Positions 29,631 through 63,266 of a stretch of 64,000 bases of DNA are shown one piece after another. Below the pieces are notes generated by a model. The model was not told the DNA's origin and ran no database searches. It was given only the letters and a program-made list of their open reading frames with translations. How positions within the stretch are numbered: the first letter of the stretch is position 1; every line of letters starts with the position of its first letter. Origin of the DNA: an uncultured virus (IMG/VR IMGVR_UViG_3300044445_000196) (lineage: Duplodnaviria; Heunggongvirae; Uroviricota; Caudoviricetes); IMG/VR virus record IMGVR_UViG_3300044445_000196; one strand, given 5' to 3'. Made by a program: the position numbers and the translations under genes.

Positions 29631-29634
29631 CACC

Positions 29635-45854: not shown

Positions 45855-47150
45855 TTACTCGCCTGTTGCTTCCTCGATCTTGCCTCGGGTGATGACGGTC
45901 TGGTCGGTCCCGCGGAACTCCCCATGCTCCTTGACCGTGCCCGTGACGACGCGCTTCGAGCCGACGTCGAGGCTATGCCAGCCGGATCGGTTCCAGATCA
46001 CCTGGGCTCCGGTCTCGTCGTCGCGGAAGGTCAGGCGGGTGCTGTAGCCGTGGTCCCCCTCGATGGGGGCGTGGCTTGCCGTCAACGTCATCGGTCGGTC
46101 TCGGAGGCGCTCCCCCACCTGGCCGACGTGCCCGGGCTCGTAGAGGCGGTCGCTCTCCTCCTTCTTCAGCGCGTCCCGTGCTGCCCACGCGAGTGCGTTG
46201 CGGTGCGCGGCGACGGCGGAGGCGCCGATGCCGAAGTGTTTGCGAGCGACCCAGCGCTCCTTGCCGGCGAGGACCGCCCGGAGGTTGTCGATGTAGTCGC
46301 TGCCGCCGTCGGGCTGTTCGTTCACCCACGCGAGGATGCGTTCCGCTTTCGCGCGGCGCTCAGGCTCGTGGCCTTCCGCGACGAGGCGGCGAAGGTTCTC
46401 CGCAACGCGCTGGGCGGTGGGCGGATCCTGGTAGGTGGCCTTCGACTTCGGGATGAAGTGCTCCCCGTCGCCACTGGCCGCGAGGGCTGCGCCGATGAGG
46501 TCGACCGCTTCCACGGTGACATCCCCAGTCGAGGAGGACCAGCGCGCCTCCTCATCTTCCTCGCCTTCACGGGCGTCTTCGAGGTCGAATGTCATCGCCC
46601 ACAGACCCTCGGGCCGGACACCGAGGAATGCGCCCATGCAGTTGCTGCCGACGACCTTCTGCTCCCCCTCGTCGTTGACGACGGTGTAAACCTTCCCGCG
46701 GCGGCGGGCGTGACCGCAGTGGTCGCAGCGCATCTCCTCCACACGGGCCGAGCCGTAGTTGACGATGTGCCCATCCGCGGTGAGCTCGTGCGCACCGGCG
46801 AACTTCCATCCCGCCTGCCGGATGACGGGGGTGCTCAGGGTGAGGTGGACGGCAGAGACGCCCACGACGTCGTTCTCGGGGACGTGGACGTACTCCTCCA
46901 CCTCGTAGGTGAAGCGCTCCTCGACGCCCGCGCGAGCGAGCCGGCGGTTCGCGCGCTCGATGCGCTTGACCACCTCGGGCAGCTGCGAGGCGGGCATGTC
47001 GTACACCGGCGAGCTCGGCTCCCAGTCCAAGGGGTACCCGTCGGAGGAGAGCTCGATCTCGGGGTCGGAGTGGGTGTGCTCGCCGAAGCGGCCGCTGTCG
47101 GTGTCGCGGGCGTTTTCGCGCCGCTGGGCGGCGTCGTCGCTGATGCTCAT
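45855..47150 (-). CDS. Shared-peptide protein with Zn-binding centre and OB-fold-like C-terminus
   Basis: RENARDTDSGRFGEHTHSDPEIEL; CDHCG..R...VGSNC; GTVKEHGEFRG..QTVITR. Confidence 0.85.
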   Translation of the reverse strand: MSISDDAAQRRENARDTDSGRFGEHTHSDPEIELSSDGYPLDWEPSSPVYDMPASQLPEVVKRIERANRRLARAGVEERFTYEVEEYVHVPENDVVGVSAVHLTLSTPVIRQAGWKFAGAHELTADGHIVNYGSARVEEMRCDHCGHARRRGKVYTVVNDEGEQKVVGSNCMGAFLGVRPEGLWAMTFDLEDAREGEEDEEARWSSSTGDVTVEAVDLIGAALAASGDGEHFIPKSKATYQDPPTAQRVAENLRRLVAEGHEPERRAKAERILAWVNEQPDGGSDYIDNLRAVLAGKERWVARKHFGIGASAVAAHRNALAWAARDALKKEESDRLYEPGHVGQVGERLRDRPMTLTASHAPIEGDHGYSTRLTFRDDETGAQVIWNRSGWHSLDVGSKRVVTGTVKEHGEFRGTDQTVITRGKIEEATGE

Positions 47151-47157
47151 GACAGTG

Positions 47158-47181
47158 ATGTGCGCGGCGCGCCGCGCACAT
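47158..47181. promoter_or_regulatory. Back-to-back class A motifs (divergent promoter pair)
   Basis: ATGTGCGCGGC-GC-GCCGCGCACAT; each half 7 nt from an ATG (47150 minus, 47189 plus). Confidence 0.8.
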
Positions 47182-47188
47182 GTGGGGC

Positions 47189-48385
47189 ATGACCATCTCC
47201 CGTGATGCCGCCGCCCGCCGCGAGTCCGCCCGCCAGTCCACCGGTGAGTTCGGTGAGCACGCCCACTCGGCACCCGAACTCACCCTAGCCACGGACTCCC
47301 CCTGGCCCGCTGACCTCGGCGGCGGGGACGGCCCGTGGGGCGAGGTCAGCGTTGAGTACGGTGCCCGCACCCCGTGGGGCCCCGCCCAGCACCAGGAGAA
47401 GGTCGCGGACGGCATCGTCTTCGTCCCCACCGAAGGTCACGGCGGCTACAAGCTGTCGAAGGAACGCAACGCCGCCATCCCCCGCCCGTACCGTTCCGCC
47501 AGCGGGTGGTACGAGGAGGACACCGAACAGCACATCGTGGTTTTCTACCACCACGACGTCGTCGCCCGACAGGACGCGAACCGCACCCGTGACGAGCGTC
47601 TCGCCGCCGAAGATGAGTCCCTGCGCGACTGGTACCCCGCGGCGTGGGAGAAGGCGAACGGCCGCGAGCTCGAGCCAGGTGAGAGCCGCGCGAAGGACGA
47701 GCAGAGCTGGACTGCGGTGCACGGGGATGACTACGTCGCCGTCGCCCAGCAGCGCATCGAGGACGGTCTCATCCTGGTCACCGCACGCCGGTCGTCCACC
47801 GGCGACGAGGATCGGTTCGTCCTCACCGCCGCACAGCGCGATGAGGCCTCGTCCGGCACTGCGTCTGAGCTCGGCAGCCGGGGCCGGTTCGTGGTCCCGA
47901 ACGGCATCAAGGCAGAGCCGCGCCCGGAGCCCGCTCCGACCAAGCCCGCGTTCACCGCTGTTCCGGCCACGGAGGGTCTGACTGCCGCGGCCGCGAAGAA
48001 GGTCTCCGCCGACCTCGACAAGCGCTGGCGTCTGAGCGATGACACGGTGCTGACGCTCCGCCAGCAGATCGAGCAGGGGCACATCACCGGCAAGACCGTC
48101 CTCGTCGACGACAACGGCACGCGGAAGTTCTACCTCGAGGACGGCGGGAGCGGCGTGATGGCGGTGGCGAAGGCCACCTTCGACGCTTTCGAAGCGCCTG
48201 ACCGCCGCACCGAGGTCGACCACGCGCGCGAGTTCTGGCAGATCGTTCAGGCGAAGAAGTCCAAGGCGCAGCGCGCGGTGGATGGGAGCTGGCGTCCGAC
48301 GAGCGCGCAGTACGACGAGCTGCGCGCGGCCAGCACCGCCGAGCGCGACGCCTACGACGCGTACAAGGCGCTGCGCGACAGCTGA
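47189..48385 (+). CDS. Shared-peptide protein with DUF7007-like domain
   Basis: RESARQSTGEFGEHAHSAPELTL; TPWG...GI..V.T.GHGG..LS..RN...WYEED. Confidence 0.8.
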   Translation: MTISRDAAARRESARQSTGEFGEHAHSAPELTLATDSPWPADLGGGDGPWGEVSVEYGARTPWGPAQHQEKVADGIVFVPTEGHGGYKLSKERNAAIPRPYRSASGWYEEDTEQHIVVFYHHDVVARQDANRTRDERLAAEDESLRDWYPAAWEKANGRELEPGESRAKDEQSWTAVHGDDYVAVAQQRIEDGLILVTARRSSTGDEDRFVLTAAQRDEASSGTASELGSRGRFVVPNGIKAEPRPEPAPTKPAFTAVPATEGLTAAAAKKVSADLDKRWRLSDDTVLTLRQQIEQGHITGKTVLVDDNGTRKFYLEDGGSGVMAVAKATFDAFEAPDRRTEVDHAREFWQIVQAKKSKAQRAVDGSWRPTSAQYDELRAASTAERDAYDAYKALRDS

Positions 48386-48395
48386 CCCGCGCGCC

Positions 48396-49324: not shown

Positions 49325-49383
49325 GGGTTCTCCGTGGTGGGCGGTGGAGCGGGATGTCGCCCCTATGCGCGCTCCGGGAATGC

Positions 49384-49414: not shown

Positions 49415-49428
49415 TGCGCGGTCAGCGG

Positions 49429-49847: not shown

Positions 49848-50630
49848 TTAGGGGGCGGTGGTGTCGCCGTGGAGGGCGTAGGTGGACAGCGCGTCCAGGC
49901 GCCGGTAGCGGTTGCCGGAGAGCCAGCCAGCCTCGCGGATGCGGTGCACCTCTGCGTGGAACGCATCGACCTTCGCGTGAGAAGCGCCGTCATCGCCGGA
50001 GTAGGGTTCGTTGGCCATCTCCGCCAGGCGGGGGTAGTCGAGGATGCTGTGCCCCTCGGGGAGGTTCTGCAGCTGATGCTCGGCGAACAGGCGCGCGTTC
50101 TCCGCGGTGACCTCCGCCTCCGCCCCGACCTGCCGGCCTTCGCGCCACATCTCGTCGACGTAGCGGGCGTTGCTGGCGGCCTGCGAGTCCGCGGCGCGGA
50201 GCGCTGCCTCATCGACCTGGGTGACGTTCAGTCCGCCGTTGTTGTTGCCGACGTAGCGGCCGCTGCGCGCGCGGTGGTACGCGACCTCGTACGAGGCTTC
50301 GACCTGGTCGGGGTCGGGGTTCCCCTCGAACGGCAAGCGGTGCGGGAGGTAGCGCTCGAGCACGGTCAGAGGCACCTCGGGTCCGCCGGCATCCGCCCAG
50401 ACCTTCTTGCGCTGGACCGCGAACGTGCCGTAGTCGAACCGCCGCATCGCGATGTCCCGCGCGAGCGCGGAGCGTCCGCCGGTGGCGGAGTCGATGGCAG
50501 CCTGCGTGTCGGCGCCACGGGTGACTTCACCGGTGAGGGGACCTTCTGGGGCGCTGTGGGTGGACTCGACGAAGCGTCCGTCGCTGGTACTACGGGGGTG
50601 GGCGGTGGTGTCAAAAGGCTGCGTGGTCAT
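49848..50630 (-). CDS. Shared-peptide hypothetical protein
   Basis: HPRSTSDGRFVESTHSAPEGPL; variant motif GCCCCGTACAT 7 nt before ATG. Confidence 0.8.
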   Translation of the reverse strand: MTTQPFDTTAHPRSTSDGRFVESTHSAPEGPLTGEVTRGADTQAAIDSATGGRSALARDIAMRRFDYGTFAVQRKKVWADAGGPEVPLTVLERYLPHRLPFEGNPDPDQVEASYEVAYHRARSGRYVGNNNGGLNVTQVDEAALRAADSQAASNARYVDEMWREGRQVGAEAEVTAENARLFAEHQLQNLPEGHSILDYPRLAEMANEPYSGDDGASHAKVDAFHAEVHRIREAGWLSGNRYRRLDALSTYALHGDTTAP

Positions 50631-50668: not shown

Positions 50669-50896
50669 CTATGCGGCGAACGTGAGCGCGGCGACGGCGG
50701 CCGCGGCGGCGCGGTCGATGGCGTCGCCGTCGAGGTCGGTGTACCCGTGCCCGGGGGCGGACCCGGTGAGGAAGTCCGCAATGGTGGCCTCGAACGCATC
50801 CGGGTCCGGTGCCGCGGGCAGGCCCGCCTCGGGGGCGCTGTGGGCCACCTGCTCGAACCGACCGAACGGGTCCCGCGTCTGGGCAGGGGCGCTCAC
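50669..50896 (-). CDS. Short shared-peptide protein (75 aa)
   Basis: QTRDPFGRFEQVAHSAPEAGL; GTGA overlap. Confidence 0.7.
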   Translation of the reverse strand: MSAPAQTRDPFGRFEQVAHSAPEAGLPAAPDPDAFEATIADFLTGSAPGHGYTDLDGDAIDRAAAAAVAALTFAA

Positions 50897-52074
50897 GCTG
50901 CGGCCTTCTCGGCGGGGGCTCGCATCGCACCGTTGAACAGCTTGTCGATGCGGTTGAGCTCGGTGTCGGTGAGCCCGGTCTCCGGCTGGAAGTGGCGAAG
51001 GATGGCTGCCTGACCGGCGGCGCGGCCGAGGACGGAGGCGTCGTTGGGGGAAGCGCAGTGGCGTTCCGGAGACCAGTCGTGGTTCTCGCGTCCGATGATC
51101 TCGGCTCGTTCGAGGCGCTCGAAGGCGTCGTTCATCTTCGCGACGGTCTTGCGGTACCTGGCTGCTCGGGACTCGGTGAGCTTGGCGACAGCCGCGGCGA
51201 GGCGGGGTTCGGCGTCGTCCCCGAGGGTGTCGATGTCCGCGTCGACGCCGGAAGCCGCGGTGGTGGCCGCGCTCATCCGGTGGCCGAGGTCGCGTGCGCT
51301 CGTGACGTGCTGCTGCAGCCCGGTGACGGTCTCGACGTCCATGACCGACCATTCGTCGTACTCGCTGAGGACGGCGGCCTGCACGCTCGCGCGGGCGACG
51401 ATGAGACCGTTGTCGTCGACGGCGTCGCAAGCGCCCTGGAGCTCGTCGGGGCCGTACCCCTCGAGGTACGCCCATCCTTCGACCTCCCCAGCGATGAGGT
51501 CGCGCTGAGCGAGCTCGCCGATGGCGTGGGTGGCCGCCTGCTCGGTGTCGAGGAAGGCCCTCAGGTGGTTGCTGTGGCCGTCCACCTTCATCGCGTCGCG
51601 GACGCCGAGGGATTCGGTGTACGCGTTGATGCCGGCGATGTCCTCGCCTGGCGCGTCCGCGAGCTCACGCGCGTTGACGCGCATCGCGTCGACCGCGGCG
51701 CTCTGGCGGGCGATGACGACGGTGGAGATGTCGGGATCGGTGCGGACGTAGCGGGGGTCGGCGGTGAAGTCGCTCTCCCACTCGATGTCGGTGAGCGAAC
51801 CAGGCTCGCGGTGCGAGAGGACCAGCCACCCGTCGTCGCGGACGGCACCGACGAACGCGTGCACCTCCTCACCGTTCACGTCCTGGTACAGCACCGGCTC
51901 GAGCACGGCGAAGCCGGGCGCTTCGGTGGGCGGGGCCTGCAGGAAGTCGCTCAGGTCGGTGTCGTCGGAGGCGTCGTCGAGGGACAGCTCGGGAGCGGAC
52001 TGCTCCTTCGTGTCGAAGCGGCCGGTGGCCTCGCGGGGGTGGAGGGCAGCGTCCCAGGTGGTCGTCGTGGTCAT
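50893..52074 (-). CDS. Shared-peptide hypothetical protein
   Basis: WDAALHPREATGRFDTKEQSAPELSL; variant motif GCCGGGTACAT 7 nt before ATG. Confidence 0.8.
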   Translation of the reverse strand: MTTTTTWDAALHPREATGRFDTKEQSAPELSLDDASDDTDLSDFLQAPPTEAPGFAVLEPVLYQDVNGEEVHAFVGAVRDDGWLVLSHREPGSLTDIEWESDFTADPRYVRTDPDISTVVIARQSAAVDAMRVNARELADAPGEDIAGINAYTESLGVRDAMKVDGHSNHLRAFLDTEQAATHAIGELAQRDLIAGEVEGWAYLEGYGPDELQGACDAVDDNGLIVARASVQAAVLSEYDEWSVMDVETVTGLQQHVTSARDLGHRMSAATTAASGVDADIDTLGDDAEPRLAAAVAKLTESRAARYRKTVAKMNDAFERLERAEIIGRENHDWSPERHCASPNDASVLGRAAGQAAILRHFQPETGLTDTELNRIDKLFNGAMRAPAEKAAA

Positions 52075-54286: not shown

Positions 54287-54320
54287 GTGACTGTCCATGC
54301 GCGGTTCCCCGCGCGCGGTG

Positions 54321-55064
54321 TCACGCGCAGGCGAAGGATCCGCAGACGCCGGTGACGGGCAGGGCGGTGAAGCACTCCCCACAGTATTCGACGGGCTTCG
54401 GGGTGCGGGCGGCGACCAGCGCCTCCCGTTCGGCCTTGGCGGCCGCGGCGGCGATGGCGAAGCGTCCGCGGGCGTCTTCGTTGATCTGCGCCTCACCGCG
54501 GGCGAAGTCGTGAGCGTCGATGGCCGCTGCCCACGACGATGCCGTGGCGGCGCGGCGGGCGGTGGTGTCCTCCCCCAGTTCGGCGCGCTCGGAGATCGCG
54601 TCGCTGGCGCCTTCGAGACCGTTCTCGCGGAAGCCGGCGACGGCGGGGGTGGCCTCGGCGAGCTCGACGACCAGCTGCGCGCGCTCGTCGTCGTCTAGGC
54701 GCTGCATCTCCTCACCTAGCGCGGTCAGGCGCCAGGCGGATCCGCCGTCGTAGGAGGGGTCGGATTCCACCAGCCCGAGGTAGCCGGCGGCGTTGAGGTA
54801 GTAGGCACCCTGACGGTGGTCCATGTCGAGCGCCTGCGCGACGGAGCCGGGGGTGTTGACGTCGTTGGCGACCGCGGCGACGGCGGCGGAGACCTGCTCG
54901 AGACGGTTCGCCTGCGGGACGGGGTACGACTCGTCGATGGCTTCGGTGTACGACGGCAGCGCCCGCAGGTGCAGCCCCGTCTCCGGTGCCGAGTTCATCT
55001 TCGTGGCGAAGGTGCCGGCGCTCTCGCGGGGGTGCTTCGCTTCGTCCCAGTGTGGTGTGGCCAT
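54321..55064 (-). CDS. Shared-peptide protein with winged-HTH and C-terminal Zn ribbon
   Basis: WDEAKHPRESAGTFATKMNSAPETGL; PQAN...RQGAYYLNAAGYLGLV...LT..G; CGECFTALPVTGVC. Confidence 0.8.
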   Translation of the reverse strand: MATPHWDEAKHPRESAGTFATKMNSAPETGLHLRALPSYTEAIDESYPVPQANRLEQVSAAVAAVANDVNTPGSVAQALDMDHRQGAYYLNAAGYLGLVESDPSYDGGSAWRLTALGEEMQRLDDDERAQLVVELAEATPAVAGFRENGLEGASDAISERAELGEDTTARRAATASSWAAAIDAHDFARGEAQINEDARGRFAIAAAAAKAEREALVAARTPKPVEYCGECFTALPVTGVCGSFACA

Positions 55065-55194
55065 GCTCGTCATGTGCGCGGCGGCTCCGGCTTCTTCGCG
55101 GGGGTCAGGGGCTCCCCTATGCGCTCCGCGGGCGGGTTCTCCGGGCGCTTGCGCTTGGCGGCGCGGTCGAGCTTGCGCCGGCGGGACGCGGCGG

Positions 55195-55872
55195 TCACTC
55201 CTTCATCTCCACGGCCATCCGCACGAGGTCTTCGGCTGCGGCCATGGCCTGGCGCACGCGCGCGAGCTGCGCGTCGGTGAGGTTCTCCACCGCGGCGGGG
55301 TCGAGCCCGTTGTCCATCGCTCGGCCGAGCAGGTGACGGATGGCGAGCGCGTCGCCCTGGCGCTGCAGCTTCTCCCCGACGGCGGCGTCCGCGGCCGCGC
55401 GCGCGGGGTCCGGCAGCGAGATGTCGTCGAACTCGAGGGTGGTGCCGTCGTCGCCGGTGAAACCGGCCTGGCGAGCAGCCTTGTAGTCGTCGAAGTGGAA
55501 GTCGTTGATGTCGGGGTACGCGTCGGGATCGTCGTACTCGACGTCGTTACCCTCAGCGTCCTCGTAGCCCCCGAAGCTCAGACGGGAGACACCATCCTCG
55601 TAGTCCCAGTAGAAGTTCGCGCGCGTGGCGGTGGGGATCGCTTCACGGGCGTCCGCGACGAACGCCGCCATGCGCGTCTCCGTCGCCTTCTCGTCCGCGA
55701 GGTACGAGTCGTAGCTGTGCACGTCGCTGAGCGCGCGCATCCGGTCCGCGGGGGTCGCCTCGGGCGCCGCGAGCTCGGCTTCGGGGGCGGAGTGCTCCTG
55801 GACGCCGAACTTGCCGGTGGCAGTGCGGGCGCTTTCGCGGGCGGCTTCGGCGTTGGGGGTGATGTCGCTCAC
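55195..55872 (-). CDS. Shared-peptide acidic protein
   Basis: RESARTATGKFGVQEHSAPEAEL. Confidence 0.8.
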   Translation of the reverse strand: MSDITPNAEAARESARTATGKFGVQEHSAPEAELAAPEATPADRMRALSDVHSYDSYLADEKATETRMAAFVADAREAIPTATRANFYWDYEDGVSRLSFGGYEDAEGNDVEYDDPDAYPDINDFHFDDYKAARQAGFTGDDGTTLEFDDISLPDPARAAADAAVGEKLQRQGDALAIRHLLGRAMDNGLDPAAVENLTDAQLARVRQAMAAAEDLVRMAVEMKE

Positions 55873-56732
55873 GAGGAGGCTCCGTTTCGGTGGGGGCGCG
55901 CGGGGATTCGCGCGCCGGTGGGGAGGGAGAGGTAGGAGCCGTCGTCGAGCGCGACGCTGACGGCGCCTTTCGCGCCGTGAGGGTCGGCGCCGCGGACGAC
56001 ACCGACGATGTCGGCGCCGGCGGGCCGGTGCTCCGCGAGGTGGCGAAAGTCGACGTGGTCGCCAGCGCGCAGCTCTCGGAGGTCGATGAGCGGGTCGGTG
56101 GCCCCGTGCGCGGCACGGCGGCTGAGTTCGGCGGCGGCGAGCTCACGCTCGGGGTCGTCCGGGTCGTCGGTGGTCTCCATCTGGTGCAGTCCCGCGGCCG
56201 CGTCCTGAGGGGTGTTCGAGGGGTACTGCGTCTCGAAGTCGGCGATGAAGTCGTTGTCGTACGCGGTCGCGAGGGCACCGTCGGAGATGAGGCGGTGGTG
56301 GCGCGCTTCCTGCCAGGTGGAGTTCTGCCGCGTGGCTGTCGGGTCGCTGGTGTCCACCAGTTCGGGGGTGACGGCGTCGCGCAGCCACGTCGGAGCGTCG
56401 GCGAGGGTGGTCCAGTGGTCGTCGTCGAGCTCGCTGGTCTGCTCGGGGGTGAGCGCCAGTTCGCGCACGGGAAGAAGTCGCTGGTCGAGGTCAGCGTTGT
56501 CCCATCCGTCTTCGTCCGGTCCCCACACGTACGCGGTGACCACGCGGCCGCGGTTGAAGTCGTTCCACGTGTTGATGCCGATGCGTTCCGGAGTGAGCCC
56601 ATCCCGCAGCGCAGGGTAGGCGTAGGAATCGAGGGCAAGTTCGGGGGCGGTATGCTCCTGCGCGCCGAAGCGGCCGTCGGTGGCGCGAGCGTGTTCGCGC
56701 GCGGTGGTCGCGGCGGTGGTGATGTCGGTCAT
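55869..56732 (-). CDS. Shared-peptide hypothetical protein
   Basis: REHARATDGRFGAQEHTAPELAL; class A motif 56740-56750. Confidence 0.8.
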   Translation of the reverse strand: MTDITTAATTAREHARATDGRFGAQEHTAPELALDSYAYPALRDGLTPERIGINTWNDFNRGRVVTAYVWGPDEDGWDNADLDQRLLPVRELALTPEQTSELDDDHWTTLADAPTWLRDAVTPELVDTSDPTATRQNSTWQEARHHRLISDGALATAYDNDFIADFETQYPSNTPQDAAAGLHQMETTDDPDDPERELAAAELSRRAAHGATDPLIDLRELRAGDHVDFRHLAEHRPAGADIVGVVRGADPHGAKGAVSVALDDGSYLSLPTGARIPARPHRNGASS

Positions 56733-56737
56733 ACCGG

Positions 56738-57787
56738 TCATGTGCGCGGCGCGCGGAGGGCGGCGTACATGCCCTGGAACTCGTCGAAGTCCCGGGCCTG
56801 CTTCGCCGAGACAACGTCCCGGTCGATGGTGCGAGTGGTGCCGCCGAAACCGTCGTCGACTTCGATGACCGCGCCCGGGTGAGCCAGCAGCCCGTCGCGC
56901 AACTTGCCCCACGCTTCGTCGAGGTCGGCCTGCCGGCGGGGCGGGTTGCCGGGACGGCCGTAGTCGCGGTCGAGGGTGTAGGGCTCGGGGTATTCCACAC
57001 GCGGGGGTGTGCGGTGGCGGGTGTCGGGGGTGTACGCCTCGGTGAGCGTCATCGGTCCGACGTCTGGGAGTCGCTCGTCGAAGCGGGCGCGGGCGTCGTC
57101 GTTGCCGCACAGACTGCGTGCTTCGGTGACGGCGAGGTCGTACTCGTGGGGTGCGTAGTACCCGTGCGGGAGGGGGCCGGGCTCGCCGATGTAGAGGTCC
57201 TGGCGGACGTCGGCGCTGTGGCCGAAGCCGTAGACCTCGACCTTGTAGGCGGGAGTGCCGGTCGCTTGCCACAGCGCACCGTCGATGACGCGGTAACCCT
57301 CGAGGTCGGTGTTGGCGTTTCGTTCGAGGGAGGCGCGGATGAACTGGTCCGTGGCGTGGGCGGGGTAGGTCTCGTCGCGGTATCCGCGGTGCAGCTGCCC
57401 GACGGTATCCGAGGTGACCTGCTGGTGCTGCCCGTCGCGGTCTTCGACGGGTCGAAACATGCGCCCGTCGATGGTGCGGATCTGGATGACGCCGTCCCCC
57501 TGCGGGTCCCAGCGGGAGCTGGACATCGTGAGCGCGACCGGGGCGTCCTCGGCGTCGACGACAGCGACACGGACCGGGACGGTGGCCTCGAGCTCGACGT
57601 CACGGGGCTTGCGTGCGCGGGGTGGGATGACGTCGCGCTGGGTGTACCGGATGGTCGCCTCACCGACGACCTCGCTCGGTGCGGCGTCCAAGCTCAGCTC
57701 GGGGGCGGAGCGCGCGTGCTCGCCGAACTCTCCGGTGGACTGGCGGGCGTTCTCGCGGCGGGCGGCGGCATCACGGGAGATGGTCAT
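56738..57787 (-). CDS. Shared-peptide hypothetical protein
   Basis: RENARQSTGEFGEHARSAPELSL; class A motif 57795-57805. Confidence 0.8.
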   Translation of the reverse strand: MTISRDAAARRENARQSTGEFGEHARSAPELSLDAAPSEVVGEATIRYTQRDVIPPRARKPRDVELEATVPVRVAVVDAEDAPVALTMSSSRWDPQGDGVIQIRTIDGRMFRPVEDRDGQHQQVTSDTVGQLHRGYRDETYPAHATDQFIRASLERNANTDLEGYRVIDGALWQATGTPAYKVEVYGFGHSADVRQDLYIGEPGPLPHGYYAPHEYDLAVTEARSLCGNDDARARFDERLPDVGPMTLTEAYTPDTRHRTPPRVEYPEPYTLDRDYGRPGNPPRRQADLDEAWGKLRDGLLAHPGAVIEVDDGFGGTTRTIDRDVVSAKQARDFDEFQGMYAALRAPRT

Positions 57788-57805
57788 GGCTCCTATGTGC
57801 GCGGC

Positions 57806-58303
57806 TCAGGAGGAGAACGCTCGCGCGCGGGACGCCCGGGCCCAGATCCGGACGTCGATGACGAGGAGGTCTCGCAGGCGTTCGCGCGCTTGCTGAGCCG
57901 CGCCCGCGGCGTCGGCACTGTCGATGTCGGCGGTGTGTTCGACGGCGATTTGGCCGAGGGCGATGTCGTCCGCGGGGGCGGGCGCTCCGTTGCGGGTGAT
58001 GGGGCGGTGGGCCTGGCCGAGGTAGATCCGTTCGCCGCGGTCGGGGTCGTTCACGGTGGCATCGGCTGAGGTCTCATGCACGCGCACGTCGACGGGCACC
58101 TGCTCGACGCGGGTCCGTCCGAACCACCCTCGCCGGGTGACGGGAACACCGAGGCGAAGGGTGCGGGTGCGGACGGTACGCGCGGATGCTGCTGCCCCGG
58201 CGACGCGAGGGGGAACGCTCACCTCGGGGGCAGAGTGCTCCTGTGCGCCGAACTGGCCGGCGGCCTGCCGGGCGTGCTCGCGTCGTGCTGCGTTGTCGTG
58301 CAT
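57806..58303 (-). CDS. Shared-peptide hypothetical protein, partial paralog of the 57787 gene
   Basis: REHARQAAGQFGAQEHSAPEVSV; class A motif 58311-58321. Confidence 0.75.
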   Translation of the reverse strand: MHDNAARREHARQAAGQFGAQEHSAPEVSVPPRVAGAAASARTVRTRTLRLGVPVTRRGWFGRTRVEQVPVDVRVHETSADATVNDPDRGERIYLGQAHRPITRNGAPAPADDIALGQIAVEHTADIDSADAAGAAQQARERLRDLLVIDVRIWARASRARAFSS

Positions 58304-58340
58304 GACTGCCATGTGCGCGGCCAGCGCGGGCCACCCGCTG

Positions 58341-58904
58341 TCAGCGGCGGCGGCCGCCGCGGGGCCGGGGTGCGCGAACGGTCGCGCCGGCGGGGAGAGC
58401 GCTCGTGTCCGCGGCGGGGTCGCCGTAGCCGGTGCCCTGCTCGCTCTCGATGCCGGCGGCGCCGCGCTCGGAAGCTGCGACGGCCTTGATGTCCGCCCAG
58501 GCGTTGAGGACGTGCCCGCTGTGGCCCTTCACCTTCACAAGGGTGGCGGCGGGGAGGCCGCGGGCGCGGCGGGCGTCCCGAACTTGGATGAGCTGGCGCA
58601 TGATGTCGGGGTTCGCGACGGGGGTTCCGCTGGCGGTGACCCAGCTCTTGCGGTTCCAGCCGTCCATCCACTTGTCGTACGCGTTGATGACGTATTGGCT
58701 GTCGATGAGGACGGTGAGTTCGGGGACGTCGGCGTGGTGGTCGAGGGCGTTCAGCAGTGCGAGCAGTTCGCCGATGTTGTTGGTGCCGTCGCGGAGGGAC
58801 CCGGATTCCCAGCGGCCGTCCTCGCTGACCCACGCCCAGCCGGTGGGGCCGGGGTTGCGCTTGCAGGCGCCGTCGGTGGCGATGGTCACGGGGCTGGGGC
58901 TCAC
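58341..58904 (-). CDS. rnhA: Ribonuclease HI
   Basis: TDGACKRNPGP, TNNIGEL, IDSQYV, VKGHSG..LN..AD. Confidence 0.95.
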   Translation of the reverse strand: MSPSPVTIATDGACKRNPGPTGWAWVSEDGRWESGSLRDGTNNIGELLALLNALDHHADVPELTVLIDSQYVINAYDKWMDGWNRKSWVTASGTPVANPDIMRQLIQVRDARRARGLPAATLVKVKGHSGHVLNAWADIKAVAASERGAAGIESEQGTGYGDPAADTSALPAGATVRAPRPRGGRRR

Positions 58905-59047
58905 AGGGGTCTCCTCAGGTTGAGGAACGTCGCGGGCGCAGGCTGGCCTCGCCGAGCTGAAGTAAGCAGCACGGGTCGTGGGGGCCTTCGGCAGGAAAAG
59001 CTATGTCCGAGCCGGGGACCGTTGACGCCCCGCGACGTTCAGTGGGT

Positions 59048-59545
59048 CTATGCGCGGGCGACGAAGGAGGTGATCTCCCCGTCGGGGTCCAGCGTGTACT
59101 TGTGCGGGGTCTCCCCGTCCACGTACGCCATCACGTCGTAGTAGTCGTCGCTGTGGCCGGACTCGAAGACGTAGAGGGCCGCTTCGGAGCCGTTGGGGTG
59201 CGTGTTCTCGATGTGCTCGCGCAGCACCTCGGGGATCGTGTGCTTGGAGGATGCCGCCTCGAGGTCTGCGCGCAGATGCGCGATCTCGGCCTGCGCGTCG
59301 GCGAGGAGGCTGGCGGCATGGCCGGAGTTGTCGGTCTGAAAGTCCTCCCAGTCCTCGTACGCGTCATCGTCGCCATCGGCTTCCGCATACGCCTCCTGGG
59401 CGTCTGTGTAGTCGTTGAGGTAGGCGGCGATCTGTTCGTCCAGTGGCGGCTTCTCGGCGGTGAGCGCGGCTTCCGGGGCGGAGTGCCCTTTGGCGGTGAA
59501 CTCCCCGGTAGCGGCACGGGGGTGGTCCTCGGGGGTGAAGGTCAT
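59048..59545 (-). CDS. Shared-peptide acidic protein
   Basis: EDHPRAATGEFTAKGHSAPEAAL. Confidence 0.8.
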   Translation of the reverse strand: MTFTPEDHPRAATGEFTAKGHSAPEAALTAEKPPLDEQIAAYLNDYTDAQEAYAEADGDDDAYEDWEDFQTDNSGHAASLLADAQAEIAHLRADLEAASSKHTIPEVLREHIENTHPNGSEAALYVFESGHSDDYYDVMAYVDGETPHKYTLDPDGEITSFVARA

Positions 59546-59548
59546 GGC

Positions 59549-60328
59549 TCAGGCCTCTCGGGTCAGGGTGTGGGTGGTGCCGCCGGCGTCGTTGTCCTCT
59601 TCCGGGAGGTAGCCGAGGTCGATGCGGGCGAGCGTGACGCGGTAGTCCGCCATCTCCCGGGTGTTCAGATCCAGCGGGACGAGCGCGCCATCGCGGTCGT
59701 ATGCCCCGATGATGTCGGGAACGTACTCGTAGCCGCCGCGTTCGTTCTTCTGGATCAGGTCGACGAGCTCGATGCGCTCGATACCGTCGGGCATGTTCGC
59801 GCGGAGGTAGTCCTGCGCCTCGCGCTGGAAGTGGTCGTTCACGGCGGTGAGAGCGCGGCTGGCGAGGTAGTTGCGCTCCGCGGCGGCGTCGGGGTCCGGG
59901 CGCTCGGTGGGGCGCCACTCCCACCCGGCCCGGCCGCCCTTCTCGTACATGGGCTCAAGCTCGACGGCGGCGCTGTGGCCGTTGACCATCCCATTGATGG
60001 TCGGCTCGTGCTGGGTACGGTAGGTGTCGAGCCCCCAGGGCTGTTCACCCGCCTTGGTGAGGTACAGCGCGGGGATGAGCCGGCCGTCCTGCTCGATGAA
60101 GCGGACGCCTTCCACGTGCTCCGGGAGGTGGGAGGCTGCCCACGCGACGCGCGCCTCACGGCACTGAGCGGCGGCTTCCTCGCGCGCGCCCCAGGCGTCG
60201 TTCGCGGCCGCGGCGGGGTCACCGTTGACGCCCACCTCGGGGGCGGTGTGCTCCTGAGCGCCGAAGCGGCCGGAGTCCTGACGGGCGTTCTCGCGCGCGG
60301 CGGCCGCGGTGGCGGTGATGTCGGTCAT
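59549..60328 (-). CDS. Shared-peptide hypothetical protein
   Basis: RENARQDSGRFGAQEHTAPEVGV; class A motif 60336-60346. Confidence 0.8.
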   Translation of the reverse strand: MTDITATAAAARENARQDSGRFGAQEHTAPEVGVNGDPAAAANDAWGAREEAAAQCREARVAWAASHLPEHVEGVRFIEQDGRLIPALYLTKAGEQPWGLDTYRTQHEPTINGMVNGHSAAVELEPMYEKGGRAGWEWRPTERPDPDAAAERNYLASRALTAVNDHFQREAQDYLRANMPDGIERIELVDLIQKNERGGYEYVPDIIGAYDRDGALVPLDLNTREMADYRVTLARIDLGYLPEEDNDAGGTTHTLTREA

Positions 60329-60366
60329 GGTCACCATGTGCGCGGCGACCGCGCATGCACGGTCAC

Positions 60367-60864
60367 ATGACCATCCCTCTTGTCGCCAAGCCTGTCGATT
60401 GCTCGTCCGTCTGCATGACCGCGGGGCAGGTGCGCGCCACCGGCGATGACACGCTCCTGGCGATGCTCGAGGGCCGATCCGATATGCCCGACGGGGAGTT
60501 CGTCTACCGCCAGCCGAACTGCCCCGAGCACGGTGAGCCGGGGACGGTCAGCGCCGCCATCGTCAGCCTCGCCGCAGCGCACCGGGATTGGGTGGCGGCG
60601 GACTTCGACCACGAAGCAAACCCCGGCTCCTACGGCGCGATGTGCAGCGCGGACCTGACGAGCGAGCGCCGGGACGAGGCAGTCTCTGAGCTGGTTCTCG
60701 CGCTGTTGCGCGAACGCCTGGGCCTGCGGGGTGAGCCGACGGTTGACCAGGTCCGCGACGCCCTCATCGCGAAGGCGCGGGACACGGATCGCTGGAGGGC
60801 TCAGGCGGTGTCGTACGCCGCGGGTGTGGACGCGGCACTGACGGCACTGACCCGCGTCCTCTGA
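60367..60864 (+). CDS. Hypothetical protein with Cys/His cluster
   Basis: CSSVC...CPEHG; GCGCATGC upstream, divergent from class A motif. Confidence 0.6.
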   Translation: MTIPLVAKPVDCSSVCMTAGQVRATGDDTLLAMLEGRSDMPDGEFVYRQPNCPEHGEPGTVSAAIVSLAAAHRDWVAADFDHEANPGSYGAMCSADLTSERRDEAVSELVLALLRERLGLRGEPTVDQVRDALIAKARDTDRWRAQAVSYAAGVDAALTALTRVL

Positions 60865-60961
60865 CGCTTGTCCAGCTCGACGTCCAGGTCGGGGCTGTCG
60901 ACGACGAAACGGGTGAGCAGCCCCGTGACGGTGTCGTGCGCCCAGACGTGGCCGTTACCGG

Positions 60962-61804
60962 TCATCTCACGTCCAGCGTGAAAGCCGCGTCGGGGCGGTC
61001 GTTGCCAGCGGGGCGCATGCCGTCACTGCGGTAGCCGAAGCCTCGCACGCGGCCGAGGATGAACGCGTCATCCGGGTCGTCGCCATTCGGTCGACGGTGC
61101 GCGCCGCGGGTGTCCTCGAAATGCACGACCTCGAGCGCGGAAGGCCCATCTTCCGAGAAGCGCAGGTGCACGTGGGAGATGCCGGCGTCGGCGGCGCGCA
61201 TGCGGATGGAGCGTTCGAGCCAAACGTCCTTTCCGCGACGCAGCTGCGGGTTCACGATGCCGTGCTCCGCCATGTCCTGGTCGATGTCGGCCTGGTACTT
61301 CTCGATGAGCCGGTCGGCCTCGTGCTCGTCGAAGTCGAGGGAGACGCTGTCATCTCCGTGCTCGTCGACCCAGTTGCGATAGTCGAGATCGTTGCCCTGA
61401 CCGAACGACCACCCGACCTCGTACGCGAAGCTGCGCAGGGCCGGATCGAGGTCTTCCACGTCGTTCCCGTCGGCGTCCTCGGCCGACTCGAACATCAGCA
61501 TCTTCGGGCCGTTCTCGTTGTCCGGGTCGACGCGGTAGAAGACCTTGCGCACCTCGACGGGAAGGTCGCGAGCGGCGTCGATGATGTGCTCCTCGACGAT
61601 GACGTCGGCGAGCTCCTTCTGCTGACGAATCAGCTCCGCTTCCTTCTTGCGAAGGGCGTTGAGGTGGTCGCTGTCGAAACGGGGCTTGTGCGGGTGCGCG
61701 TCGAGTGTGACCTCGGGCGCGGAGTGCTGTTGGACGCCGAACTGGCCTCCGGCGGTGCGGGCGGCGTCCTGCGCTGCCTGCGCAGCGGGGTTGATGTTCG
61801 TCAT
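60962..61804 (-). CDS. Shared-peptide hypothetical protein
   Basis: QDAARTAGGQFGVQQHSAPEVTL; GGAGGA RBS; ATGA overlap. Confidence 0.8.
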   Translation of the reverse strand: MTNINPAAQAAQDAARTAGGQFGVQQHSAPEVTLDAHPHKPRFDSDHLNALRKKEAELIRQQKELADVIVEEHIIDAARDLPVEVRKVFYRVDPDNENGPKMLMFESAEDADGNDVEDLDPALRSFAYEVGWSFGQGNDLDYRNWVDEHGDDSVSLDFDEHEADRLIEKYQADIDQDMAEHGIVNPQLRRGKDVWLERSIRMRAADAGISHVHLRFSEDGPSALEVVHFEDTRGAHRRPNGDDPDDAFILGRVRGFGYRSDGMRPAGNDRPDAAFTLDVR

Positions 61805-62436
61805 GCGAGTTCCTCCGCGGCCGCACGCGCGGCGTCGTGGGTGGGGTGGGTGCTGACGAGATCCCCGTCGAGGGTGCGCACTTCCACGGGTGCGGTGTCG
61901 TCGAACGACGCTTCCACGGTCACATGGTCCCCGAATCGCCCGCCGATGGAGTGGGTCTCTTCGTTGAACCATTCGGTGATGCCGTGGTCGTCGTCGAGGC
62001 GGCTGGCCATCACCTCGCGCACGTCCCACCCGTGCCGTCCGCGGTCCATGCCATTCACGCGGAGGCGTTCGAGGTCCTCGGTGGCCTGCGTGACGAGCTC
62101 GTCGTTCGTGTCGCCGTTGTCCCAGTTGCTGTCGGTGTACTGCAGGTCGATGAGCTCGACGTCGCCGGTGGTGGTGTTGGTGCCGTTGGCCGTGATGATG
62201 GCGAGGGAGGGGTTCTCCCGGGCGTGCTCCGCGAGCGCGGCGAGCATCAGCTCACGTGTCTCGGCGCGCGTCATCGGGCGGTCGTCGCGGCCGGCGAGGA
62301 CAGCATCCACCGCCGCGTGGTGGCTGGCGGGGGCGAGGGTCGCCTCGGGTGCGGTGTGCTGCTGGACGCCGAACTGGCCTCCGGCTGTGCGTGCGGTTTC
62401 CTGCGCGGCTTTGGCGGCGGGGCTGATGTCGGTCAT
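61801..62436 (-). CDS. Shared-peptide hypothetical protein
   Basis: QETARTAGGQFGVQQHTAPEATL; class A motif 62444-62454. Confidence 0.8.
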   Translation of the reverse strand: MTDISPAAKAAQETARTAGGQFGVQQHTAPEATLAPASHHAAVDAVLAGRDDRPMTRAETRELMLAALAEHARENPSLAIITANGTNTTTGDVELIDLQYTDSNWDNGDTNDELVTQATEDLERLRVNGMDRGRHGWDVREVMASRLDDDHGITEWFNEETHSIGGRFGDHVTVEASFDDTAPVEVRTLDGDLVSTHPTHDAARAAAEELA

Positions 62437-62459
62437 ACCGACCATGTGCGCGGCCCGCG

Positions 62460-63266
62460 TCAGGGCTGGGTGAAGCGGAGGGTGAACGGGGCGCCGGTGT
62501 CGTTGCGTTCCATCTGCTGGGTCGGGTTCGTGTAGCGCGCAGCGGCCCAGAGCACTTCGTGGTCGTCGAGGACTCCGCTGCCGGCACGGTTTCGTCGACC
62601 GGCGGTGGTGTGGATGGCGACCGCTTTGAGGCCCTCCCGGCCTTCCTCGTCCCAGTCGAGCTCGACGGCTGCGAAGCCCTGCTCGCGGGCCACCTGGGCG
62701 AGGTAGCGGGTGGTGGCAGTGTCGATGTCCTCGCCAATCTCGCGGGAGCTGCGGCCGCGAGTGTTCGTGCGCCACTCCTCCTCGAGCGCGGTGATGCGGG
62801 CACGGGTGCCTTCCTTGCTCACGTCGAGGTGCGCGTAGAGCCCGTCCAGCTGGAAGTCGGCGTCCGAGACCCGGCCCCCGAGGTCGACGGATGCCTCCTT
62901 GTGGGAGGCCTCGGCGCTGTCTGGCATGTAGGTTCCACCGCGCAGGGTGCCGGTGTACTCGGCGGCGAAAACCACACCGTCGGAGTCCTTGGTGATGACG
63001 AAGCGGAGCGCGTCCGCCGTCGGGGGTGCATCGGCCCACAGCTGCGACACCCGCTGCTCGGCGATCTGCGCCTCCACCGCTTCGAGCTGCGCATCCAGAC
63101 CGGCGCGGACGGCGAGGAGGTCGTTCAATCGCTTCTGGTTCGGCGTCGGCTCGGTGACGATGAGCTCGGGGGCACTGTGCTCCTGTTGGCCGAACTGGCC
63201 GTTGGCGCGTCGGGAGGCTTCGACGACGCGGCGGTAGGCGGCGTCGGCAAGGGGAGTGTGTGACAT
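62460..63266 (-). CDS. Shared-peptide hypothetical protein
   Basis: EASRRANGQFGQQEHSAPELIV; GAGGA RBS. Confidence 0.8.
   Translation of the reverse strand: MSHTPLADAAYRRVVEASRRANGQFGQQEHSAPELIVTEPTPNQKRLNDLLAVRAGLDAQLEAVEAQIAEQRVSQLWADAPPTADALRFVITKDSDGVVFAAEYTGTLRGGTYMPDSAEASHKEASVDLGGRVSDADFQLDGLYAHLDVSKEGTRARITALEEEWRTNTRGRSSREIGEDIDTATTRYLAQVAREQGFAAVELDWDEEGREGLKAVAIHTTAGRRNRAGSGVLDDHEVLWAAARYTNPTQQMERNDTGAPFTLRFTQP

What the first reader, a model, noticed from the sequence alone, without database searches (positions are those of the whole stretch)
45855..63266. Seventeen unrelated proteins share one N-terminal address peptide: candidate protein-targeting/delivery system
Seen: genes starting at 5043, 19419, 47189 (+) and 47150, 50630, 50896, 52074, 55064, 55872, 56732, 57787, 58303, 59545, 60328, 61804, 62436, 63266 (-) all carry R-x3/4-G-[QREKT]-F-x4-[HRQN]-[ST]-[AD]-P-E-x2-[LV] in their first ~35 aa, e.g. 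RESARQSTGEFGEHAHSAPELTL and HPRAATGEFTAKGHSAPEAAL. After it the proteins differ completely (Zn/OB-fold, DUF7007-like, wHTH plus Zn ribbon, acidic domains, a 75-aa mini protein). The peptide is hydrophilic, so it is not a Sec, Tat or lipoprotein signal. Interspersed enzymes (RNase H, SprT, glutaredoxin) lack it. Inference: a portable tag read by one partner, most simply a substrate signal for the element's VirD4/VirB4 or FtsK ATPases delivering a cocktail of early-acting proteins to recipient cells. Alternatives are a particle-packaging signal, a protease site or a docking motif. From memory, HPR..G.F resembles a short motif in some phage head-associated proteins (unverified). I know of no characterised system matching this.
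Basis: partly seen in the sequence, partly recalled or inferred. Interest (0 to 1): 0.93.

Follow-up and report, generated by a model that had tools for sequence, protein, structure and literature searches.

The report
Shared start tag on megaplasmid proteins
Seventeen otherwise unrelated proteins of a conjugative giant plasmid from leaf-dwelling actinobacteria begin with the same floppy 30-residue peptide, whose core also sits in front of the cargo modules of phage head proteins, so it probably labels proteins that travel with mobile DNA, though its reader is still unknown.

Summary
All 17 ORFs start with R-x3-4-G-x-F-x4-5-[HRQN]-[ST]-[AD]-P-E-x2-[LV]; 200 triplet shuffles gave a mean of 0.025 matches. 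Conservation is at the protein level. The bodies are unrelated: 1 of 136 pairs is similar.

The tag is a modular, disordered add-on. An exhaustive profile search found 351 protein clusters, essentially all matching at residues 1-45. No Pfam, PHROGs, NCBIfam or PDB entry matches it.

It heads roughly 40-50 genes on each of two related Micrococcales megaplasmids. These share a coupling-protein/nuclease module that lies next to tagged genes. The second half of the tag is element-specific across three subtypes.

Its HPR-x3-G-x-F core recurs inside phage portal- or MuF-fused polyvalent proteins, between the head anchor and effector modules.

Most genes also carry a promoter-like GCCGCG[CT]ACAT-N7-ATG.

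Best reading (about 0.4): a cargo handle for proteins leaving with the DNA through the type IV system. I found no paper describing the tag.

The parts
5043..5732 (+). tagged gene, 229 aa (tag MADMTPDQIAQREAARTRTGEFGTHDRTDPEIDL), inside the coupling-protein/nuclease/NERD gene row
   Evidence: promoter-like motif upstream
19419..20234 (+). tagged gene, 271 aa, just upstream of the FtsK-like gene
   Evidence: promoter-like motif upstream
47189..48385 (+). tagged gene, 398 aa, DUF7007 body; conserved in pS16 and pPA-B-2242
   Evidence: AlphaFold residues 1-47 pLDDT<50, body 82-95
45855..47150 (-). tagged gene, 431 aa; body matches phrog_2319 and untagged phage proteins
47151..47188 (.). divergent control region with palindrome CATGTGCGCGGCGCGCCGCGCACATG (two promoter-like motifs back to back)
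49848..50630 (-). tagged gene, 260 aa, HPR-type (type B) tag
   Evidence: GTACAT variant upstream
50669..50896 (-). tagged mini protein, 75 aa, GTG start, SD-like upstream, no promoter motif
50893..52074 (-). tagged gene, 393 aa, type B tag (TTWDAALHPREATGRF)
54321..55064 (-). tagged gene, 247 aa, type B tag, DUF7226 body
55195..55872 (-). tagged gene, 225 aa, GTG start, operon-internal
55869..56732 (-). tagged gene, 287 aa
56738..57787 (-). tagged gene, 349 aa
57806..58303 (-). tagged gene, 165 aa
59048..59545 (-). tagged gene, 165 aa, type B tag (MTFTPEDHPRAATGEF), operon-internal
59549..60328 (-). tagged gene, 259 aa
60962..61804 (-). tagged gene, 280 aa, operon-internal
61801..62436 (-). 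tagged gene, 211 aa
62460..63266 (-). tagged gene, 268 aa, operon-internal
17794..19341 (+). promoter-like motif (17794-17801) plus N7-ATG gene 17809-19341 that starts MTNTSPAALAA but lacks the G-x-F...APE tag: promoter and tag are separable
1..2490 (+). coupling-protein-like ATPase, 829 aa (candidate reader; binding not shown)
   Evidence: weak AAA_10 hit; homologue P0285 named 'type IV secretory system conjugative DNA transfer family protein' by NCBI; conserved in pS16, pPA-B-2242 and G385
2487..3860 (+). 457-aa protein overlapping the coupling-protein stop; wHTH-like N-terminus plus conserved D233/E247/K262; candidate nuclease or relaxase substitute
   Evidence: weak Foldseek hits, E about 0.1, mostly PD-(D/E)XK nucleases
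15094..17622 (+). VirB4-like ATPase (AAA_10)
7341..11600 (+). 1419-aa membrane-anchored FtsK/HerA-like ATPase next to a NERD nuclease gene (6772-7332)
20361..22181 (+). 606-aa FtsK/TraB-like DNA translocase

Best explanation
The peptide is a portable, intrinsically disordered N-terminal 'cargo handle'. A family of conjugative megaplasmids of Micrococcales (this Microbacterium-type element, Curtobacterium pS16, Pseudarthrobacter pPA-B-2242 and pACHL01) puts it on a large share of its soluble accessory proteins. One reader, specific to the element or its host, recognises it. The most likely purpose is to recruit these proteins to the DNA-transfer machine (coupling protein and type IV secretion channel). 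They would then leave the donor with the plasmid DNA and act early in the recipient, as the effector modules of phage portal/MuF polyvalent proteins leave the capsid with phage DNA. Shown here: the tag's existence, modularity, N-terminal restriction, disorder, element-specific co-variation, linkage to the transfer module, and homology of its core to the phage junction motif. Inferred: recognition by the coupling protein, transfer, and early action.
For: (1) Modularity. The bodies are unrelated (1 of 136 pairs similar). phrog_2319 aligns to residues 50-427 only. Phage homologues of that body start after the tag, and Rhodococcus phage Finch gp27 has no tag.
(2) N-terminal restriction. 351 clusters score E<=1e-3. 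Among the 211 proteins fetched, the Phe of G-x-F lies at residue <=30 in 193. All 9 with Phe beyond residue 36 have an internal Met 19-22 residues upstream, so they are over-called starts.
(3) Disorder. Residues 1-47 have pLDDT<50 on a well-folded body.
(4) One reader. Within each element subtypes A, B and C share the same second half: H[ST][AD]PE..L in the window, [RH]..[ED]..[VI]TL in pS16, HS[DE].[VP]..L in pPA-B-2242.
(5) Link to transfer genes. The tag HMM hits 4 of 6 plasmids that carry the VirB4-like ATPase (11, 20, 6 and 8 hits), against 0 of 5 control genomes. In G206 3 of the 5 hits, and in G389 all 7, lie on the VirB4 contig. The order coupling protein, nuclease, tagged genes, NERD is kept in the window, pS16 and pPA-B-2242.
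(6) Cargo type. Tagged relatives carry SprT-like (3), LPD29 (3), KTSC (2), DUF7007 (2) and Peptidase_M78 (1) domains. LPD29 is a polyvalent-protein domain (PMC5512222, passages read).
(7) Phage parallel. HPR-x3-G-x-F-x-EK gave 119 viral loci and 95 distinct contexts. 78 of 95 also carry an unsearched W/F at -7..-4, as type B tags do. Among the 40 ORFs >=600 aa scanned, the annotated ones show the motif between a portal or MuF domain and effector modules. Example L193: portal 64-391, motif 429, topoisomerase 507-691. Example L195: portal 46-397, motif 500, PBECR1 566-653.
Against: No reader is identified. Characterised T4SS signals are C-terminal or internal (my knowledge). Four genomes carry a 37-41% identical VirB4-like ATPase. 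Three of them (G394, G358, G367) show no tag or promoter motif in the 56-100 kb scanned; the fourth (G385) has a divergent tag that my profile missed. Bifidobacterium pMP7017 has the ATPase family (27% identity) but 0 tag hits. Only 13 of 135 tagged relatives have any Pfam domain, so 'effector-like cargo' rests on few cases. Two tagged genes sit inside the transfer gene rows and could be machine parts rather than cargo. The phage motif shares only the first half of type B tags; types A and C share just R/K..G-x-F. In phages the motif could equally be a cleavage site. No expression or proteomic data exist.
Confidence: 0.4

Rival explanations
1. Docking motif for a cellular hub without transfer. 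The tag plugs all these proteins into one plasmid or host complex (replisome, segregation or nucleoid complex, chaperone) inside the cell that carries the plasmid.
For: It is a disordered short linear motif on a flexible linker. Its second half is element- or host-specific. Two tagged genes lie inside machine operons. Tags are found on roughly 40-50 genes per plasmid, many far from transfer genes.
Against: This does not explain why the same core precedes effector modules of capsid-borne portal/MuF proteins. No hub candidate was found. No known clamp- or SSB-type motif resembles it (my knowledge).
Confidence: 0.2
2. Processing site or propeptide. The motif is recognised by a protease, either element-encoded (SprT-like, M78-like) or host. 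The protease cuts cargo free from portal/MuF anchors in phages and removes, activates or destabilises the N-terminus of plasmid proteins.
For: In phage ORFs the motif lies at junctions between the anchor and effector modules, the natural place for a cleavage site. The window tag ends in A-P-E, which resembles the S/A/G-x-E sites of some prohead proteases (recalled, not tested). SprT-like genes occur in the window and in pS16, and some SprT-like proteins are themselves tagged.
Against: The P-E is not conserved in pS16 or pPA-B-2242 tags. No protease is conserved in all tag-bearing elements: the SprT-like gene was not found in pPA-B-2242 at E<=1e-6. Removing 30 residues from a free N-terminus has no obvious purpose unless it is coupled to targeting.
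Confidence: 0.15
3. Expression-cassette hitchhiker. The promoter-like motif, the start codon and the first ~30 codons spread together as one 5' module. The peptide matters for expression (translation of short-leader mRNAs, nascent-chain control), not for addressing.
For: 12 of 17 tagged genes have [CT]ACAT-N7-ATG. In pS16, 35 of 44 motif sites are followed by N7-ATG/GTG, and about 33 of those ORFs look tagged (the last count by eye).
Against: Five tagged genes lack the motif and have SD-like sites. Gene 17809 has the motif but no tag. In pPA-B-2242 the motif precedes 31 ORFs, of which only 2 are truly tagged (by eye). Codon usage shows selection on the peptide. The core also occurs deep inside phage ORFs.
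Confidence: 0.1
4. Particle-packaging signal. The element, or a helper, makes capsid- or injection-type particles, and the tag loads proteins into them, as the T4 capsid-targeting sequence or PVC payload leaders do.
For: There is homology to a motif of capsid-resident phage proteins. The plasmids carry phage-like nucleotide-metabolism genes: dUTPase, RNase H, thymidylate synthase and DHFR. One tag-bearing 94.5-kb contig is filed as viral in IMG/VR (L196).
Against: Pfam found no capsid, portal, terminase, sheath or tube family in the 76 ORFs of this window. The strict tag pattern found no true hit in viral contigs. Only 64 kb of a 146-kb contig was visible.
Confidence: 0.05

Closest known systems
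Polyvalent proteins of phages and conjugative elements and their solo-domain versions (Iyer, Burroughs, Anand, de Souza, Aravind 2017, PMC5512222; passages read)
   Same: They are encoded beside T4SS or head-packaging genes. They hold diverse effector-type domains predicted to be delivered with the DNA. LPD29 occurs in 3 tagged relatives. The tag core sits between modules of portal/MuF-fused polyvalent proteins.
   Different: Here each body is a separate small protein rather than one giant polypeptide. The shared element is a short disordered peptide. 'HPR' has 0 occurrences in that paper's text.
MuF polymorphic toxins of temperate phages (Jamet et al. 2017, PMC5576092; term search only)
   Same: An N-terminal head-anchoring domain is followed by variable C-terminal toxin or effector modules. 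My viral hits include MuF + ADP-ribosyltransferase ORFs with the motif right after MuF (L204, L209).
   Different: The paper's text holds none of 'HPR', 'motif', 'linker' or 'cleavage'. The plasmid proteins have no MuF or portal domain.
Phage T4 capsid-targeting sequence on internal proteins (my knowledge, not tested)
   Same: A short N-terminal peptide is shared by unrelated proteins, directs them to travel with the DNA, and is later cleaved after Glu.
   Different: No capsid or scaffold genes were seen in the window. The sequences are unrelated. Cleavage of this tag is unknown.
N-terminal marker motifs and leaders of secreted effector repertoires (MIX and RIX of type VI effectors, LXG of type VII, PVC payload leaders; my knowledge)
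   Same: One N-terminal marker on many polymorphic cargo proteins is read by one delivery machine.
   Different: A different machine would be involved (a T4SS-type conjugation system, if any). The tag is much shorter than LXG or MIX domains, and its sequence is unrelated.
Type IV secretion substrate signals (C-terminal tails of VirE2/VirF, BID domains, XVIPCD, Dot/Icm E-block; my knowledge)
   Same: These are signals read by a coupling protein, which lets proteins pass through a conjugation-type channel.
   Different: Those signals are C-terminal or internal. This tag is strictly N-terminal, and no binding to the coupling protein has been shown.

Membership tests
Sec / Tat / lipoprotein signal peptides | hydrophobic h-region after a basic n-region (plus twin-Arg or lipobox) | tested here: not met
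   None of the 17 proteins has a 19-residue window with mean Kyte-Doolittle >=1.6. The tag is hydrophilic.
Polyvalent proteins (Iyer et al. 2017) | two or more effector-type domains in one polypeptide | tested here: not met
   Each of the 17 has at most one Pfam domain and is 75-431 aa long. They fit only the paper's 'solo forms'.
Polyvalent proteins (Iyer et al. 2017) | encoded beside T4SS or portal-terminase genes | tested here: met
   The same window holds coupling-protein-like, VirB4-like and FtsK-like genes.
Polyvalent proteins (Iyer et al. 2017) | domains from the polyvalent repertoire (LPD, ART, MPTase, PBECR and others) | tested here: inconclusive
   0 of the 17 window proteins have such a domain. 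3 of 135 tagged relatives carry LPD29.
Polyvalent proteins (Iyer et al. 2017) | delivered with the DNA into the new host | not testable with these tools
   This needs mating or virion proteomics.
Phage portal/MuF junction motif ([WF]-[DN]-E-x-x-HPR-x3-G-x-F-x-E-K; defined here, not in print as far as I searched) | aromatic residue 3-5 before HPR, then x3-G-x-F | tested here: met
   This holds for type B tags only. The filter shows it for 3 of 3 window, 4 of 4 pS16 and 2 of 2 pPA-B-2242 type B tags. The fourth window HPR tag (55064, PHWDEAKHPRESAGTF) also fits by eye. 78 of 95 viral contexts have the aromatic residue.
Phage portal/MuF junction motif | E-K two residues after the Phe | tested here: inconclusive
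   The pS16 type B tags have F-[TA]-E-K. The window tags have F-T-A-K, F-D-T-K, F-A-T-K and F-V-E-S. Types A and C lack it.
T4SS substrate signal | recognised by the coupling protein | not testable with these tools
   The one co-fold attempt gave no verdict (see Tried and rejected). A binding or transfer assay is needed.
T4SS substrate signal | C-terminal or internal position (characterised examples, my knowledge) | tested here: not met
   The tag is N-terminal in the window and, once over-called starts are allowed for, in essentially all 211 relatives fetched.
Type VII (ESX) substrates | EccC/EssC ATPase and WXG100-type helical hairpin substrates | tested here: not met
   The 1419-aa FtsK-like protein scores 25.6 bits against an EccCa cut-off of 509. 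No WXG100 Pfam hit appears among the window ORFs.
T4 capsid-targeting sequence / PVC payload leader | co-encoded capsid-scaffold or contractile-injection genes | tested here: not met
   Pfam found no such family in the 76 window ORFs. Only 64 kb of the 146-kb contig was seen.

The most novel reading that the evidence does not exclude
The tag is the first N-terminal, sequence-defined translocation signal for a conjugative type IV system. The same ancient handle is used by tailed phages to load and eject effector modules. This would be a common 'travel-with-the-DNA' code shared by capsids and conjugation channels. It would let a plasmid send a cocktail of some 40-50 separate early proteins ahead of, or with, its DNA, under a dedicated short-leader promoter regulon.
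Probability: 0.25. Interest if true: 0.92.

Novelty: new variant of a known kind. Interest (0 to 1): 0.8.

Why it matters
If the tag is an address label, it names at one stroke the protein cargo of a whole family of poorly known actinobacterial megaplasmids. That cargo amounts to hundreds of protein families, 122 of 135 sampled without any Pfam domain. It would also explain a recurrent but, as far as I could search, undescribed junction motif in phage portal/MuF polyvalent proteins. It would give a short, transplantable peptide for testing protein transfer during Gram-positive conjugation, where substrate signals are unknown. It would also provide a bioinformatic handle for finding early-acting factors, plausibly anti-defence ones. 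The linked promoter-like motif defines a plasmid-wide regulon that can be mapped by 5'-end RNA sequencing.

Tried and rejected
**Co-fold of tag and coupling protein.** The coupling-protein alignment (A3, 829 aa) was folded with the tag alignment (A1): no verdict (score 0.00, mark 0.32).

**Known families.** Nothing matched the tag:
- Pfam on the whole proteins and on the tags alone (0 families at E<=5).
- PHROGs on the tags alone: 5 families, each hit by 1 of 17 tags, best E 0.12.
- NCBIfam.
- PDB sequences: 0 hits at E<=10.

**ESM Atlas lead.** A type B tag pointed to LPD28 clusters (score 0.75). This was not upheld. LPD28 was found in 0 of 4 plasmids. The single LPD28 ORF found in 301 genomes has no tag.

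**MuF ORFs in cellular genomes.** Six MuF ORFs from 301 Actinomycetales genomes (349-570 aa, not polyvalent) hold no HPR motif. The motif turned up only when viral contigs were scanned directly.

**Near-identical DNA.** None in plasmids or phages.

**Whole genome.** None is held for this window.

**RNA evidence.** No RNA holder is listed for the stretch.

**Fold searches.**
- DUF7007 model: no match at E<=0.001.
- The 457-aa protein: only weak hits.

**Literature.** No paper on the tag was found in searches. 'HPR' has 0 occurrences in PMC5512222, PMC5576092 and PMC3482391.

**Rejected ideas.**
- Prepilin (A24) leader: no hydrophobic stretch follows the Gly.
- Clamp-binding motif: no QL[SD]LF-like pattern.
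- PE/PPE similarity (APE..L): judged coincidental.

Full report
**1. Observation**

- The reversed sequence gives 0. Two hundred triplet shuffles give a mean of 0.025 and a maximum of 1.
- In the alignment of the first 42 residues (A1), M1, R16, G20, F22, P30 and E31 are invariant.
- Conserved residues are written with different codons, including Ser as both TCN and AGY, so selection is on the peptide.
- None of the 17 proteins has a hydrophobic segment.
- After the tag, only 1 of 136 body pairs is detectably similar.
- Pfam names only two bodies (DUF7007, DUF7226). PHROGs names one: phrog_2319 covers residues 50-427, which leaves the tag out.

**2. Context**

The window has about 70% G+C. By my GC3-based gene call it holds about 76 ORFs.

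| Coordinates | Gene product |
|---|---|
| 1-2490 | coupling-protein-like ATPase; one homologue is named 'type IV secretory system conjugative DNA transfer family protein' by NCBI |
| 2487-3860 | overlapping 457-aa protein; conserved D/E/K triad and weak fold matches to PD-(D/E)XK nucleases |
| 6772-7332 | NERD nuclease |
| 7341-11600 | 1419-aa membrane-anchored FtsK/HerA-like ATPase |
| 15094-17622 | VirB4-like ATPase |
| 20361-22181 | FtsK/TraB-like translocase |

- The element belongs to a 146-kb contig.
- Homologues of its transfer proteins come from Microbacterium isolates.
- The stretch recurs in leaf metagenomes of several studies.

**3. How far the tag reaches**

- A word-indexed profile search found 78 proteins.
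- An exhaustive HMMER search of 1.84 billion representatives found 351 with E<=1e-3 and 22 with E<=1e-10. The best 150 almost all match at residues 1-45.
- In the 211 proteins fetched, the Phe lies at residue <=30 in 193. All 9 cases beyond residue 36 have an internal Met 19-22 residues upstream and the translated promoter motif ('AAHM') before it, so they are over-called starts.
- Of 135 tagged relatives, 13 have a Pfam family:
  - SprT-like 3
  - LPD29 3
  - DUF7007 2
  - KTSC 2
  - Peptidase_M78, Transglut_core3 and PspC, 1 each
- The tag is rare in genomes. The strict DNA pattern hit 1 true locus among GTDB representatives (a Microbacterium MAG), 0 in viral contigs, and about 25 high-GC metagenome loci.
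- The profile hit 4 of 401 genomes of the order at E<=1e-4.

**4. Related megaplasmids**

Profile A1 was run against plasmids that carry a VirB4-like homologue:

| Plasmid | Tag HMM hits |
|---|---|
| Curtobacterium pS16 | 20 |
| Pseudarthrobacter pPA-B-2242 | 11 |
| pACHL01 | 8 |
| Arthrobacter zg-Y1110 plasmid | 6 |
| Euzebya plasmid | 1 (weak) |
| Bifidobacterium pMP7017 | 0 |

I read pS16 and pPA-B-2242 whole. Three tag subtypes appear:

- Type A: MT.I.PAAAARE.AR...G.FG.Q.H
- Type B: [FW]..E..HPR...G.F..K
- Type C: (R/Q)QPxG.P.GG.F

A regex-plus-GC3 filter gave 63 candidates in pS16 and 51 in pPA-B-2242. Reading them one by one, I judge roughly 45 and 40 to be real. That is about 6-8% of the 727 and 556 annotated features. 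The same filter is imperfect on the window: it returns 2 false hits and misses some true ones.

The second half of the tag is the same across subtypes within an element but differs between elements. This argues for one reader per element or host.

**5. Link to transfer genes**

- The coupling protein, the 457-aa nuclease, NERD, VirB4-like ATPase, its 375-aa neighbour and a DEAD-type helicase are shared by the window, pS16, pPA-B-2242 and the partial contig G385.
- All four elements have tags. G385 carries type C tags that profile A1 missed.
- In each complete element, tagged genes follow the coupling-protein/nuclease pair on the same strand. In pPA-B-2242 this is an array of about 22 tagged genes at 152-182 kb.
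- The link is not universal. Of 10 genomes (from 401) with a VirB4-like homologue, A1 found tags in G206 and G389 (partly and wholly on the VirB4 contig, respectively), plus one weak stray hit in G385. Five VirB4-negative controls gave 0.
- Three VirB4-positive regions of 56-100 kb (G394, G358, G367) have neither tag nor promoter motif.

**6. Promoter-like motif**

- Twelve of the 17 tagged genes have GCCGCG[CT]ACAT exactly 7 nt before the ATG. The other five abut upstream genes and have purine-rich SD-like sites.
- GCGYACAT occurs 14 times against 4.16 expected.
- Of 12 sites of the 10-mer, 11 are followed by N7-ATG, and 10 of those genes are tagged.
- Gene 17809-19341 has the motif but no tag.
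- In pS16, 35 of 44 sites are followed by N7-ATG/GTG, and nearly all of those ORFs are tagged.
- In pPA-B-2242 a relaxed form precedes 31 ORFs, mostly untagged.
- Fifty-two aligned upstream regions show no -35 conservation.
- I read this as a plasmid-family promoter giving leaderless or 7-nt-leader mRNAs. That is inference; no transcript data exist.

**7. Phage connection**

Earlier notes of this scan (e1-5753139, e1-5328016, e1-5753117) described the same tag elsewhere and claimed that its core separates modules of phage head proteins. I tested this.

- The pattern H-P-R-x3-G-x-F-x-E-K gave 119 viral loci. I estimate a few dozen by chance, but this was not computed by a tool.
- There were 95 distinct contexts: 59 in frames >=300 aa and 69 internal. 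78 carry an unsearched W/F at -7..-4, and an unsearched Glu at -3 is the commonest residue there (56%).
- G+C of these loci runs from 0.35 to 0.75.
- Pfam on 40 ORFs >=600 aa shows portal or MuF domains followed by effector modules: ART-PolyVal (4), ADPrib_exo_Tox (3), Zeta_toxin (4), Topoisom_I (2), PBECR1/3 and 2'-5' RNA ligase (3). Where both domains were annotated, the motif lies between the anchor and the effector.
- Named phage portals match only residues 1-429 of one such ORF, so the motif-bearing part is an add-on.
- Every HPR-type (type B) tag examined in the plasmids shares the aromatic residue 3-5 before HPR.

**8. Interpretation**

The tag is a disordered handle: residues 1-47 have pLDDT<50 on a folded DUF7007 body. 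It is added to pre-existing protein families and read by one partner.

The phage parallel and the synteny with the coupling-protein module make 'proteins that travel with the DNA' the best-supported reading. I hold it at about 0.4.

The rivals are a non-transfer docking motif, a protease site, an expression cassette, and particle packaging.

No paper describing the tag or the phage junction motif was found in my searches. Supplements were not read.

Noticed in passing
window 5028-5035, 17794-17801, 19404-19411, 47158-47165, 47174-47181, 55072-55079, 56740-56747, 57795-57802, 58311-58318, 60336-60343, 62444-62451 (plus GTACAT variants before 50630 and 52074): A promoter-like motif, GCCGCG[CT]ACAT, lies exactly 7 nt before start codons. 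No -35 element is conserved. The motif is kept across genera (Microbacterium-type element, Curtobacterium pS16, Pseudarthrobacter pPA-B-2242). In pPA-B-2242 it precedes 31 ORFs, most of them untagged. It may mark leaderless or 7-nt-leader transcripts of a plasmid-specific regulon.
   Followed up: partly
window 2487-3860 (+): A 457-aa protein is translationally coupled to the coupling-protein gene. It has a wHTH-like N-terminus and a conserved D233/E247/K262 triad. The model has pLDDT 87, and weak fold hits are mostly restriction-type nucleases. It could be the missing relaxase of plasmids that MOB-suite calls non-mobilizable.
   Followed up: partly
window 47151-47188: A perfect palindrome, CATGTGCGCGGCGCGCCGCGCACATG, lies between the divergent tagged genes 47150(-) and 47189(+). 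These are the two tagged genes best conserved in related plasmids.
   Followed up: partly
window 25397-27172 (+): A 591-aa protein carries five DUF285 repeats (E 1.4e-157) and an N-terminal hydrophobic segment. Its first-codon-position G+C is unusually low (0.52) for this element.
   Followed up: no
window 6772-11600 (+): A NERD nuclease gene is followed by a 1419-aa ATPase with five N-terminal membrane segments and a single FtsK/HerA-like P-loop region. It has about 540 and 300 residues of unassigned sequence on either side. It was found in pS16 but not in pPA-B-2242 at E<=1e-6.
   Followed up: no
window 45855-47150 (-); L296 2983-4257: The body of this tagged protein has untagged homologues in large phages: Rhodococcus phage Finch gp27 (eight genes downstream of the major head protein gene, gp19), Gordonia phages ('DNA binding domain protein'), and Vibrio and Aeromonas T4-like phages.
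   Followed up: partly
L196/L197 (IMG/VR contig of 94.5 kb, G+C 0.66): A contig filed as viral carries two N-terminal type B tags, with the translated promoter motif ('AAHI') upstream of one of them. It looks like a fragment of the same megaplasmid family rather than a phage.
   Followed up: no
window 29030-30208 (+): A dUTPase domain (residues 258-388) is fused behind about 250 residues of unassigned, Ala/Gly-rich sequence. Related plasmids also carry thymidylate synthase and DHFR, a phage-like nucleotide-metabolism set.
   Followed up: no
window 54000-63900: This stretch is held almost whole (0.57-0.99 of sampled words) by DNA runs of leaf metagenomes and some organism-labelled runs from several studies. 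The element is therefore widespread in the phyllosphere.
   Followed up: no
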